Shown piece after piece: positions 28,201 to 31,200 of a DNA stretch of 64,000 nucleotides. The stretch lies in assembly GCF_036507355.1 (NCBI RefSeq), contig NZ_AP027877.1; one strand, 5' to 3'. Numbering within the stretch: the first letter of the stretch is position 1; every line of letters starts with the position of its first letter. Position numbers: made by a program. Origin of the DNA: Escherichia coli (lineage in GTDB: Bacteria > Pseudomonadota > Gammaproteobacteria > Enterobacterales > Enterobacteriaceae).

Positions 28201-31200
28201 CCAACGCTGAAACGAGACAAGTATAATCGTACAAATTAGCGCCACAATTGTCACGATAACCCCGACGCCTGGATCTGTCATCGGTGTTGGAGATATCAGA
28301 TGTTGAATACCCGTCAAAAACAGGAATAGTGCTGAACCGGAGATAAACATACTTTGCGCCAGCGCCGCGAGGGACTCAGCTTTACCGTGACCAAACGAGT
28401 GATTATCGTCGGCAGGTTGCAGGGAATATCGCACCACCAGTAAATTCGTCAACGACGCGCCGATATCCACCAGCGAATCCACCAGCGCGGCGAGAATACT
28501 CACCGACCCGGTATACCACCATGCAAAAATTTTAATCAGCAATAGCAGCGAAGCCATCGCCGTCGCAGCAATCGCCGCCCGACTGACCAGCCGTCCATAA
28601 GATTGATTCATAAATACTCCCGCTATCAACTGACGCTAGTATAACGGAAGCAAATCATCTGCAATGCATTAAGCAGCAGGCAAATTGAGGATAAAAAAAA
28701 CCCCCACATCATGTGGGGGAAGACAGGGATGGTGTCACAAAAAAGCACCTAACCTGATGATATAAATGGATTTATGTCAACCGCTGTCCACATAGCGTCC
28801 ACATCGTTCAGCGTCCGTTTAATCGGACGCTTTTAAATTTTTATTTTTCCCAGCAGAAAAATTAGCTTTCCCGCTGTTTTGCAACTCAACAAGAGGAGAT
28901 AACCGTCGGTAAACAGCCAAAAGTATCTTTAACTGAACCAGTTCATCTGCCCCCGATAGTTGAACCAAGTTTTTACGTTGTTCTTCACTAAGTGCCATCA
29001 CAGATTCAAGTGATTTAACTGCGTCAGAAACAAGTTCAATCTCTTTAATTTGATTCTGTATACGCAGCTTCTCTGATTTCAACTTTGCCCATTCTCTTTG
29101 TCGATATGTACGCATCACCTGATCGTAAACTTTGTTGGCAGCCAGAATACTTCCACCAACAGCAGTAACTAACTCAGCAATCTGCCAAGAGATATCAATA
29201 AGAGCAGACAATTCAATAAAGCCAGGAGAGGCATACTGAATTTTTTTCACTACAGGACGTAAATCTGGTGGAGTCGCACTGTAAGCCCCTCTAAAAAAGT
29301 TCACCACACTGTGCCCACCCTCCCAAGGCATTGTTGAATATCCTCTTGATCCTCCTTTTAGGCGCTGAATTTACAATCCAAGTGCAACAAAAAAAGAAGT
29401 ACTCATCAACTAGAATATAATTTTGTTTCCACACAAAAACCACTTCCAAATGATGAGTACTTCCTACCGACATCTTACAATAAACGAGCGAGAAAAGATA
29501 ATGATTTTACTCGCACAGGGCAAAAAACAAGCAGAAATTGCCAAAGCACTGGGACGTAGCTCCAGCACCATTTCTCGCGAGCTGAAACGACACGCTCTAG
29601 AAAGCTACAGTGCAACGAACGCACAAAACAGCTATTTGAAGCATCGTCAAAATAGCAAAGCACAGCGCAAATTAGAGCAGCCTGAATATTTCAATTTGGT
29701 GCAAGAAAAGTTTCTGACAGAAAACTGGTCGCCCGAACAAATCAGCGCACGATTAAAATTGGAAAAATCTGAATTATCCATTAGTTATTCAACCATTTAT
29801 CGTGGTATTTATTCAGGGTTGTTTGATATAGGCGAACGCAAAGCCAGTCGCAAACTGCGCCACAAAGGCAAAACACGGCATACAAAAAATCATCATGAAA
29901 AACGTGGCAAAATTCAGATATCCAACCATTTGAACGACCGTCCCATTTCGGCGCAAAATCGCAGTCGCTTTGGACATTGGGAAGCCGATACCGTACTGGG
30001 TAAAGCGGGTGGAGCTTGTTTGCTGACGCTGACGGAACGCAAAAGTCGTTTTGAGTTGGTGAAGAAAATTCCTGCCAAAAAAGCCGAAGCAGTCCAAAAA
30101 GCCATGATTGAATTGCTGGATTCACATATATTGCGGTCAATTACGCCAGACCGTGGTAAAGAATTTGCCCAACATCGTTTGGTAACAGAAGCACTGGGTG
30201 TAGAATTTTACTTCCCCGAGCCGCATCAACCGTGGACACGGGGAACGAATGAAAATACAAATGGGTTACTTCGTGAATACTTTCCGAAGCACCAAGACAT
30301 CAATCAGTGGAGCGAAGTTGATATTCAACAGGTGATCAATAAACTGAATTTACGACCACGTAAATGTTTAGGTTGGAAAACACCTTATGAAGTTTACTTC
30401 AAAAAATCGTTGCACTTGGTTTGACAATTCAAGGCCATAAAAAAAACCATATAGCTGCAAATACTCTTTCGTTAAGACCGCGAAATCAGCTAACTCCCAA
30501 CGATTATCAAGCTCAATTATAACTTTTTCCATTTTCCACCAACCTGTCCAACTTTAAAGATTGACTTTTAAGTATATGATAAACATAGTTTATTAAACGT
30601 GATCCACTACTTTTAATGAAGAATATTCCCCAAAACAGAAAGCCCCTCGACTGAGGGGCTTTCTGTTTGTAATTACATCCACATAATTTGCTGCCCTGAC
30701 GGCAACGGGTGCGGTCTTACGGCGTGGACTTCTCCCGGCTTGTCCAGGGTAATGACATTTTCTTTGTTCATGGTTTTCTCACTTCTGAATCAGGGTTAAC
30801 CGGCCAGCCAGGCTGACCGGATGAAAATCACAGGCCGATATTGCGGCGGTGTTGCTCCAGCCGGTCGACGCCGTTCACCTTCTCAATCATGTTGATGGTG
30901 TCAATTTCGACCAGCTCCTTACCGTCCATCGTCAGCCGGAAATAACCCATTTTTCACCGGCACGAGCCTTCGGTTTGCAAGGATCACGCAATTCAATAAT
31001 TGGTAATTTATTTGCCTTCACCATTTCACTGACGGCTGTCTTTGGCTTCCCTAATAAATCAGCAAATTTATCCACATGAACCGCATCAAGCGGATACTGA
31101 ATCACATAATTTTCAGCGTCCATATATGGTACCCTCATAGGATCCAGCCCTTTCTAAACCACTCAAAACCGTTTAGACGCTGGTTTATTCTCAAATCAAT

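What the first reader, a model, noticed from the sequence alone, without database searches (positions are those of the whole stretch)
29366..30431. IS30-family insertion sequence abutting the orphan gene's start
Seen: a ~1066-bp element with ~35-40-bp imperfect terminal inverted repeats sharing the core ccaagtgcaac, and a single IS30-type DDE transposase. The left end is 35 bp upstream of the divergently oriented 170-aa gene, so the IS has replaced or displaced that gene's native promoter. Established: IS30-family elements can form hybrid promoters and transpose via circular intermediates. Inference: the IS probably caused the deletion of the prophage's replication and structural region and may now control the orphan gene's expression.
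Basis: partly seen in the sequence, partly recalled or inferred. Interest (0 to 1): 0.5.

Follow-up and report, generated by a model that had tools for sequence, protein, structure and literature searches.

The report
ISApl1 insertion splitting a prophage gene
[quoted passage not shown] It has jumped into the middle of a 213-codon gene in a decayed P2-like prophage of E. coli, not next to it, and it did not cause the prophage's large deletions.

Summary
The element is real and is ISApl1 (IS30 family). Its true ends are 29364-30433, which gives 1,070 bp. It is 100% identical to copies on E. coli plasmids. It has 27-bp inverted repeats (21/27 matching), a 2-bp target duplication (GC) and a 324-aa transposase with HTH and DD(33)E features.

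1. The IS does not lie upstream of a 170-aa "orphan". Removing the IS and one GC restores a 213-aa ORF. That ORF is 100% identical to WP_000416606.1, which is intact in about 158 complete E. coli genomes. The insertion falls after codon 33, and the 170-aa ORF is only the 3' remnant, starting at internal Met44.

2. The IS did not delete the prophage. Its two flanks are contiguous in an intact P2-like prophage at the same cpxP-fieF site. The two deletion junctions lie 308 and 511 bp to the right of the IS. An IS-free strain carries an independent deletion remnant at the same locus.

The only outward promoter element of the IS (TTGACA in IRR) points away from the 3' fragment.

The split gene matches PADLOC's PD-T4-10_B models. 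PD-T4-10B is the toxin of an abortive-infection toxin-antitoxin system. Here the gene stands alone and its function is untested.

Verdict: a known element and a routine gene-disrupting insertion, of low interest.

The parts
29364..30433 (+). Complete ISApl1 (IS30 family), 1,070 bp
   Evidence: 100% identity over 1-1070 to plasmid copies annotated 'IS30-like element ISApl1 family transposase'. Same ends and length as an independent copy in E. coli E423, with 1 nt difference. The published length is 1,070 bp (PMC5821093).
29364..29390 (+). IRL, 27 bp (GCTGAATTTACAATCCAAGTGCAACAA); contains TACAAT (29372-29377), the potential -10 of the circle-junction promoter
   Evidence: 21/27 matches to IRR. 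The literature reports 27-bp IRs with six mismatches (PMC5404521).
30407..30433 (-). IRR, 27 bp (reverse complement CTTGAATTGTCAAACCAAGTGCAACGA)
30421..30426 (+). Outward-facing TTGACA (-35) in IRR. With a 2-bp spacer and IRL it would form TTGACA-17 nt-TACAAT. In the present location it faces right, away from the 170-aa ORF, and no -10 follows it.
   Evidence: direct sequence reading. That the junction promoter forms is inferred from IS30-family knowledge.
29362..29363 (.). Left copy of the 2-bp target-site duplication (GC)
   Evidence: The empty site in L001 and L003 has a single GC. The blast segments overlap by 4 bp, of which 2 are a chance AG shared with the IS end.
30434..30435 (.). Right copy of the 2-bp target-site duplication (GC)
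29450..30424 (+). Transposase CDS, 324 aa (RefSeq start). N-terminal HTH_38. Catalytic D180, D234, E268, with 33 residues between D234 and E268.
   Evidence: The single nucleotide difference from the E423 copy (IS position 80) lies upstream of the CDS, so the protein is identical to that copy's WP_012478345.1. Papers quote a 927-bp ORF (PMC5404521). The Pfam HTH_38 match starts at residue 5 of the long form, which favours the upstream start.
29396..29463 (+). Leader hairpin with a 13-bp outer stem that pairs the AUGAUG start region of the transposase mRNA
   Evidence: Inverted repeat I2. RNA fold -22.4 kcal/mol, z = -7.5, and 0 of 200 shuffles fold as well. A role in damping translation is inferred.
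30434..30532 (-). 5' fragment (codons 1-33) of the split 213-aa gene. In the window it reads on into the IS as a 54-aa ORF (30368-30532).
28819..29363 (-). 3' fragment (codons 34-213 plus stop) of the split gene.
   Evidence: The reconstructed ORF equals WP_000416606.1, 642 bp and intact in L001, L002 and L003. It matches PADLOC PD-T4-10_B at E = 1.3e-34.
30735..30742 (.). Prophage deletion junction J1: the C-terminal part of ogr joined to the 5' end of the tail gene E. It removes 4.7 kb of the intact prophage.
   Evidence: It lies 308 bp from the IS end.
30940..30948 (.). Prophage deletion junction J2: the tail-tube gene (FII) joined to cox. It removes 21.5 kb.
   Evidence: It lies 511 bp from the IS end.
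28690..28736 (+). 47-bp att repeat on the fieF side; it bounds the prophage remnant
   Evidence: Identical 47-bp copies at 28690-28736 and 32720-32766, and at both ends of the intact prophage L003.
32720..32766 (+). 47-bp att repeat on the integrase/cpxP side

Best explanation
A full-length and apparently functional copy of ISApl1 (IS30 family) has inserted by ordinary transposition into the chromosome of an E. coli strain, duplicating the dinucleotide GC. The family mechanism is copy-out-paste-in via a circular or IR-IR junction intermediate.

The target was codon 33/34 of a 213-aa accessory gene (WP_000416606.1). This gene is a stand-alone homologue of the PD-T4-10B toxin family. It is the last gene, between ogr and attR, of a P2-like prophage integrated between cpxP and fieF.

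The prophage had been reduced to about 3 kb by two internal deletions that have nothing to do with the IS.

The insertion most likely inactivates the gene. The native promoter and the first 33 codons are now separated from the remaining 180 codons by 1,072 bp. The 170-aa ORF is a leftover reading frame, not a gene under IS control.

Shown: the identity, ends, duplication, empty site and position of the deletion junctions. Inferred: loss of function of the split gene, the transposition pathway, and the order of events (deletions versus insertion).
For: Identity:
- 449 plasmid records match, and 403 carry most of the element. They are annotated as ISApl1.
- The match is 100% over 1-1070.
- NCBIfam IS30 equivalog scores 309 bits. 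HTH_38 and rve are found. D180/D234/E268 have a 33-residue D-E spacing.
- IRs match at 21/27.

Ends and duplication:
- An independent copy in E423 has identical ends and a GG duplication.
- The flanks map to L003 31102-30239 and 30242-29933, so they are contiguous.

Split gene:
- The reconstructed empty site is 100% identical over 833 nt to PSS-08-1 and others. 158 genomes carry at least 80% of it.
- The 642-bp CDS is annotated in L001, L002 and L003.
- Residues 1-33 contain invariant W12, Y24 and Y28.
- In the AlphaFold model (pLDDT 86) they form strand 2-8 and most of helix 14-36 of the N-terminal domain.

Deletions are independent of the IS:
- The junctions are at 30741/2 and 30944.
- PSS-08-1 has a different single deletion (L003 29799->3319) without an IS at this locus.

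Insertion is strain-specific:
- None of 5,426 complete genomes has the IS at this site.

Literature:
- 1,070 bp, 27-bp IRs, 2-bp TSD, AT-rich targets, and frequent chromosomal gene disruptions without mcr-1 (PMC5404521, PMC5821093, PMC10916398).
Against: - A 2-bp duplication alone has a 1-in-16 chance of arising by accident, so the claim rests on the empty-site comparison rather than on the repeat.
- The right end is formally ambiguous by up to 2 bp from this locus alone, because AG precedes the GC on both sides. It is resolved only by the independent copy.
- The TSD itself is GC, whereas ISApl1 favours AT-rich DNA. The immediate flanks are a T-tract and an A8-tract.
- Loss of function of the split gene is inferred. 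An SD-like AGAGGA lies 9 nt before Met44. No terminator-like site was found on the minus strand inside the IS. Read-through expression of a truncated product is therefore not excluded.
- The order of the deletions and the insertion cannot be determined, because no genome with this exact remnant was found.
Confidence: 0.93

Rival explanations
1. The IS sits in the promoter region of an intact 170-aa orphan gene, now drives or controls that gene through a hybrid promoter, and generated the large prophage deletion by IS-mediated adjacent deletion.
For: The IS left end is 32 bp from the ATG of the 170-aa ORF. IS30-family elements carry an outward -35 and can form hybrid promoters (established knowledge; TTGACA seen). 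ISApl1 is known to be associated with deletions in Tn6330 (PMC5821093).
Against: - The 170-aa ORF is codons 44-213 of a 213-aa gene that is intact in about 158 genomes.
- The outward TTGACA is in IRR, at the far end, and points away.
- No promoter-like site leaves IRL leftward.
- The duplication is intact and the flanks are contiguous. An adjacent deletion would leave the IS at the junction without a duplication.
- The junctions are 308 and 511 bp away.
- An IS-free strain shows comparable decay of the prophage.
Confidence: 0.03
2. The insertion is real, but the 3' fragment is still expressed as an N-terminally truncated 170-aa protein. Transcription would read through the IS from the native promoter, or start from a cryptic antisense start in the IS. 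The locus would then be altered rather than inactivated.
For: An SD-like AGAGGA lies 9 nt upstream of Met44. No terminator-like structure was found on the minus strand within the IS. The long C-terminal helical part (residues 88-195) would be retained.
Against: - About 1.1 kb of untranslated antisense IS RNA after the 54-aa fusion ORF should provoke Rho-dependent polarity (inference).
- The lost residues include invariant W12, Y24 and Y28 and the first strand and helix of the N-terminal domain.
- There are no expression data.
Confidence: 0.08
3. The IS is a remnant or an end of a composite transposon (Tn6330, ISApl1-mcr-1-pap2-ISApl1) rather than a solitary IS.
For: ISApl1 in Enterobacteriaceae is mostly known from mcr-1 contexts. 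356 of 449 matching plasmids are conjugative.
Against: There is only one pair of ISApl1 ends in the 64-kb window. The start of mcr-1 is absent from the window. Both flanks are prophage DNA that is contiguous in the empty site, with a 2-bp duplication. Solitary chromosomal ISApl1 movement without mcr-1 is documented (PMC5404521).
Confidence: 0.01

Closest known systems
ISApl1 (IS30 family; first described in Actinobacillus pleuropneumoniae; the flanking IS of the mcr-1 transposon Tn6330)
   Same: Same length (1,070 bp), 100% nucleotide identity to plasmid copies, 27-bp IRs with six mismatches, a 2-bp target duplication, an HTH + DD(33)E transposase, and AT-rich immediate flanks (PMC5404521, PMC5821093).
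   Different: Nothing of substance. It is a solitary chromosomal copy without mcr-1. The duplicated dinucleotide is GC rather than A/T-rich.
IS30 of E. coli (family founder)
   Same: Same domain architecture, the DD(33)E catalytic spacing, a 2-bp duplication, and the potential to form a strong IRR-IRL junction promoter (TTGACA-17-TACAAT across a 2-bp spacer).
   Different: It is a different element. By my recollection IS30 is about 1.2 kb with different IRs; the two were not aligned here. The window copy is ISApl1, not IS30.
PD-T4-10 (two-gene toxin-antitoxin-like abortive-infection system, Vassallo et al. 2022), as the closest relative of the gene that was split
   Same: The 213-aa protein and all 41 aligned homologues match the three PADLOC PD-T4-10_B models (best E = 1.3e-34 for the window protein). 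It is prophage-borne, like many systems in that study (PMC9519451).
   Different: It covers only positions 139-346 of the 353-position model, so it is a short form. No A (antitoxin) partner is adjacent, either in the P2-like prophage or beside homologues in Vibrio and Enterobacter. Toxicity and defence are untested.
Phage P2 accessory ('moron') loci such as old/tin and Z/fun
   Same: It is an accessory gene of unknown function carried at a fixed place in a P2-like prophage. P2 prophages are known reservoirs of defence genes (PMC9519451).
   Different: It lies between ogr and attR, not at the hotspot between the replication endonuclease and the portal that the paper describes. There is no hit in 50,697 phage records.

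Membership tests
IS30 family / ISApl1 | Transposase matches the IS30-family profile above the curated cut-off | tested here: met
   NCBIfam NF033563 transpos_IS30 (equivalog) scores 309 bits against a cut-off of 80, covering 1-267/267 of the model. PHROG 4646 transposase, E = 2e-100.
IS30 family / ISApl1 | DDE catalytic triad with 33 residues between the second D and E; N-terminal helix-turn-helix | tested here: met
   D180, D234 and E268 with a D-E spacing of 33. The residues were picked by motif (HWEAD, ITPDRG, GTNENT), not by structural alignment. Pfam HTH_38 at residues 5-48 and rve at 174-261.
IS30 family / ISApl1 | Terminal inverted repeats of about 20-30 bp (ISApl1: 27 bp with six mismatches) | tested here: met
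   21/27 matches. This agrees with PMC5404521.
IS30 family / ISApl1 | 2-3-bp target-site duplication (ISApl1: 2 bp) | tested here: met
   GC on both sides, with a single GC in the empty site of L001 and L003. An independent copy has GG.
IS30 family / ISApl1 | Near-identity in nucleotide sequence and length to reference ISApl1 (1,070 bp) | tested here: met
   100% over 1,070 bp to RefSeq/GenBank plasmid copies annotated ISApl1. The ISfinder entry itself could not be queried with these tools.
IS30 family / ISApl1 | Transposition through a circular or IR-IR junction intermediate with a junction promoter | not testable with these tools
   The sequence allows TTGACA-17 nt-TACAAT across IRR-NN-IRL. 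Cyclisation of ISApl1 has been shown experimentally elsewhere (PMC10916398, PMC6349718), but not for this copy.
Tn6330 (ISApl1-mcr-1-pap2-ISApl1) | Two ISApl1 copies flanking the 2.6-kb mcr-1-pap2 segment | tested here: not met
   There is one pair of ends in the window and no mcr-1 start sequence. The flanks are contiguous prophage DNA.
PD-T4-10 defence system (for the split 213-aa gene) | B component (toxin) homology | tested here: met
   PADLOC PDLC04024 E = 1.3e-34, PDLC04025 E = 7e-23, PDLC04026 E = 3e-19. All 41 family members match. The match is partial: model positions 139-346 of 353.
PD-T4-10 defence system (for the split 213-aa gene) | Adjacent, overlapping A component (antitoxin) | tested here: not met
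   In the intact prophage the gene stands alone between ogrK and attR, with 140 bp upstream. Homologues in Vibrio and Enterobacter have no conserved neighbour. The A-component PADLOC models were not scanned against small ORFs.
PD-T4-10 defence system (for the split 213-aa gene) | Toxicity of B and abortive-infection protection against T-even phages | not testable with these tools
   This was shown experimentally only for the ECOR65 system (PMC9519451).

The most novel reading that the evidence does not exclude
The insertion may not be a neutral hit. It could have been selected because it silences a stand-alone PD-T4-10B-like toxin or defence gene that became a liability once its P2-like prophage had decayed. 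Alternatively, the surviving 170-aa fragment could be expressed and have an altered activity. Either way, ISApl1 spread would link to changes in phage susceptibility in mcr-1-lineage E. coli.
Probability: 0.06. Interest if true: 0.35.

Novelty: already known. Interest (0 to 1): 0.1.

Why it matters
It matters little on its own. ISApl1 is one of the best-studied insertion sequences because it mobilises mcr-1. Solitary chromosomal copies that disrupt genes are routinely reported.

Its practical value is for annotation:
- The '170-aa orphan' should be annotated as the 3' part of an IS-disrupted 213-aa gene.
- The prophage deletions should not be attributed to the IS.
- A chromosomal ISApl1 flags a strain that has probably met ISApl1- or mcr-1-bearing plasmids (inference).

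A minor point of wider interest: the split gene belongs to an uncharacterised, stand-alone branch of the PD-T4-10B toxin family, carried at the ogr-attR end of P2-like prophages.

Tried and rejected
- I searched 5,426 complete E. coli genomes for the same IS-occupied site and found none. The best hit, E423, has its ISApl1 at the attR border instead.
- I searched for the window's exact double-deletion remnant without the IS and found none. The order of deletion and insertion therefore stays open.
- A tblastn of the 213-aa protein against 50,697 phage records gave no match.
- Pfam, PHROGs and NCBIfam gave nothing for the 213-aa (or 170-aa) protein.
- A profile search of PDB sequences gave nothing below E = 0.17.
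- A Foldseek search of the AlphaFold model against the PDB gave nothing below E = 1. No fold assignment is offered.
- The promoter and terminator scan found no leftward promoter-like site leaving IRL. The scan is only a consensus match and proves little.
- A hybrid promoter at the right end was rejected: TTGACA in IRR is followed by an A-tract with no -10 at 16-18 nt.
- mcr-1 adjacency and a composite transposon were rejected.
- A 4-bp duplication (AGGC) with a 1,068-bp element was considered, because the blast segments overlap by 4 bp. It was rejected because the independent E423 copy ends in the same ...CAAG and is 1,070 bp long.

Full report
**What is at the coordinates.** The stretch 29340-30460 contains one long ORF on the + strand (29423/29450-30424) flanked by inverted repeats.
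- The core CCAAGTGCAAC occurs only twice in the 64-kb window, in opposite orientation, at 29378-29388 and 30409-30419.
- The protein carries an N-terminal HTH_38 and an rve integrase-core domain.
- It scores 309 bits on NCBIfam's IS30-family equivalog model, against a cut-off of 80.
- By motif, the catalytic residues are D180, D234 and E268. Thirty-three residues separate the second D from E, which is the IS30-family spacing.

**Which element it is.**
- Megablast against 72,556 plasmids found 449 records. Of these, 403 carry most of the query, at 99% identity or more. They are annotated 'IS30-like element ISApl1 family transposase' and come from Escherichia, Salmonella, Klebsiella and the original Pasteurellaceae hosts.
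- With the element alone as query, several E. coli plasmids match positions 1-1070 at 100%.
- Published properties of ISApl1 are a length of 1,070 bp, 27-bp IRs with six mismatches, a 2-bp target duplication, AT-rich targets and copy-out-paste-in transposition (PMC5404521, PMC5821093, PMC10916398).
- All the sequence properties are met here. The IRs match at 21/27.

**Exact ends.**
- An independent ISApl1 in E. coli E423 (L002) lies at a different site with a GG duplication. It starts GCTGAATTT, ends AATTCAAG, is 1,070 bp long and differs from the window copy by one base.
- The element is therefore 29364-30433, flanked by GC (29362-63) and GC (30434-35).
- From this locus alone the right end would be ambiguous, because AG precedes GC on both sides. 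That is why the blast segments overlap by 4 bp. The second copy resolves the ambiguity.

**The IS is inside a gene, not upstream of one.**
- Deleting 29364-30435 joins the flanks into one 213-codon ORF on the - strand, running from 30532 to 28819.
- This reconstructed empty site is 100% identical over 833 nt to E. coli PSS-08-1 and other strains. 158 of 5,426 complete genomes carry at least 80% of it.
- RefSeq annotates the 642-bp CDS as hypothetical protein WP_000416606.1 in L001, L002 and L003.
- The insertion falls after codon 33. The 5' piece now reads into the IS as a 54-aa ORF.
- In a 41-sequence family alignment, residues W12, Y24 and Y28 are invariant. L8, D9, L14, T21, Q26 and Y32 are nearly invariant.
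- In the AlphaFold model (mean pLDDT 86), residues 2-8 and 14-36 are the first strand and first helix of the N-terminal domain.
- The fragment therefore lacks conserved core elements.

**The IS did not make the prophage deletion.**
- E. coli MNCRE44 carries an intact P2-like prophage of about 29 kb at the same site. Its gene order is cpxP, int, C, cox, the replication, head and tail genes, D, ogrK, the 213-aa gene, fieF.
- Window 28500-29363 maps to L003 31102-30239, and window 30432-30741 maps to L003 30242-29933. The IS flanks are therefore contiguous in the intact prophage.
- Further right, window 30735-30944 maps to L003 25212-25004 (the end of the tail-tube gene and the start of gene E). 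Window 30944-33000 maps to L003 3499-1443 (cox, C, int, cpxP).
- There are thus two deletion junctions. J1, at about 30741/2, joins ogr to E and removes 4.7 kb. J2, at about 30944, joins the tube gene to cox and removes 21.5 kb. Both show short imperfect homologies.
- The junctions lie 308 and 511 bp from the IS. An IS-mediated adjacent deletion would put the IS end at the junction and destroy the duplication. Neither is the case.
- PSS-08-1 has a different single deletion (L003 29799->3319) at the same locus, and no IS there. This prophage therefore decays without ISApl1.
- No genome in the collection has the window's exact remnant or the IS at this site. The relative order of events is not shown. 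The insertion looks strain-specific.

**Does the IS drive the 3' fragment?**
- The only consensus outward element is TTGACA at 30421-30426 in IRR. Joined to IRL through a 2-bp spacer it would give TTGACA-17 nt-TACAAT, the IS30-type junction promoter for the transposase.
- In the chromosome this element faces right, away from the 3' fragment, and no -10 follows it.
- The simple scan found no promoter-like site leaving IRL leftward.
- An SD-like AGAGGA precedes Met44, and no terminator-like site lies on the minus strand of the IS. Weak read-through expression from the native promoter cannot be excluded. Polarity after the 54-aa fusion ORF makes it unlikely (inference).

**What the split gene is.**
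- Pfam, PHROGs and NCBIfam give nothing.
- PADLOC's three PD-T4-10_B models match, with a best E of 1.3e-34 over model positions 139-346 of 353. All 41 aligned homologues match as well.
- PD-T4-10 is a two-gene, toxin-antitoxin-like abortive-infection system in which B is the toxin (PMC9519451).
- Here the gene stands alone. So do homologues of 209-235 aa in Vibrio (cassette-like arrays of short genes, possibly an integron) and in Enterobacter (near an Ogr-like gene).
- There is no match in phage records, in PDB sequences or in PDB folds.
- I file it as 'PD-T4-10B-like, function untested', not as a PD-T4-10 system.

**Verdict.** This is a correct sighting of a known insertion sequence. The boundaries need a small correction, and two interpretive claims are contradicted by comparison with empty sites and an intact prophage. 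Novelty: already known. Interest: low.

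Noticed in passing
window 28690-32766: The whole region between fieF and cpxP is a remnant of a P2-like prophage, about 3 kb plus the IS, bounded by identical 47-bp att repeats (28690-28736 and 32720-32766). It keeps int (31593-32603), the C repressor (31260-31553), a truncated cox (30932-31138), a 210-bp tail-tube/gene-E piece, the last ~23 codons of ogr, and the 213-aa accessory gene.
   Followed up: yes
window 30663-30773 (- strand): Deletion junction J1 creates a chimeric small ORF, MNKENVITLD|KPGEVHAVRPHPLPSGQQIMWM. 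The N-terminus comes from tail gene E and is fused in frame to the C-terminus of Ogr. It is probably meaningless, but an annotator could call it a gene.
   Followed up: partly
L001 (E. coli PSS-08-1) 3854-6607 versus L003: An independent, single 26.5-kb deletion of the same prophage at the same locus (ogr codon ~6 joined just upstream of cox). It again keeps int, C and the 213-aa gene. Retention of these genes recurs in separately decayed remnants.
   Followed up: partly
L002 (E. coli E423) 4092-5161, and window 30434-30447: E423 has ISApl1 at the attR border of the same prophage. Both insertion sites have IRR next to a nearly identical A-tract: GG|ATAAAAAAAACC versus GC|CATAAAAAAAACC. This suggests a shared target preference. 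E423 has 36 ISApl1 places in its chromosome record.
   Followed up: no
window 29396-29463 (+ strand, inside the IS): A strong hairpin in the transposase leader pairs the AUGAUG start region (-22.4 kcal/mol, z = -7.5). It looks like the translation-damping structures of other IS elements. The single base that differs from the E423 copy (29443) lies in its 3' arm.
   Followed up: partly
window 28819-30532 minus the IS; proteins P0001-P0117: The split gene belongs to a family of about 118 clusters of stand-alone proteins, 209-235 aa long, in Enterobacterales, Pseudomonas and Vibrio. All match PADLOC PD-T4-10_B but have no A partner. The confident AlphaFold model (a small alpha/beta domain plus a helix of about 65 residues) has no PDB match.
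   Followed up: partly
window 35523-35600, 44445-44607, 55297-55355, 11205-11262, 6541-6593: Rfam gathering-level hits elsewhere in the window: three naRNA4 (REP-type) elements, SECIS_3, the ClpQY promoter element and the L31 leader. These are ordinary features of the E. coli chromosome.
   Followed up: no
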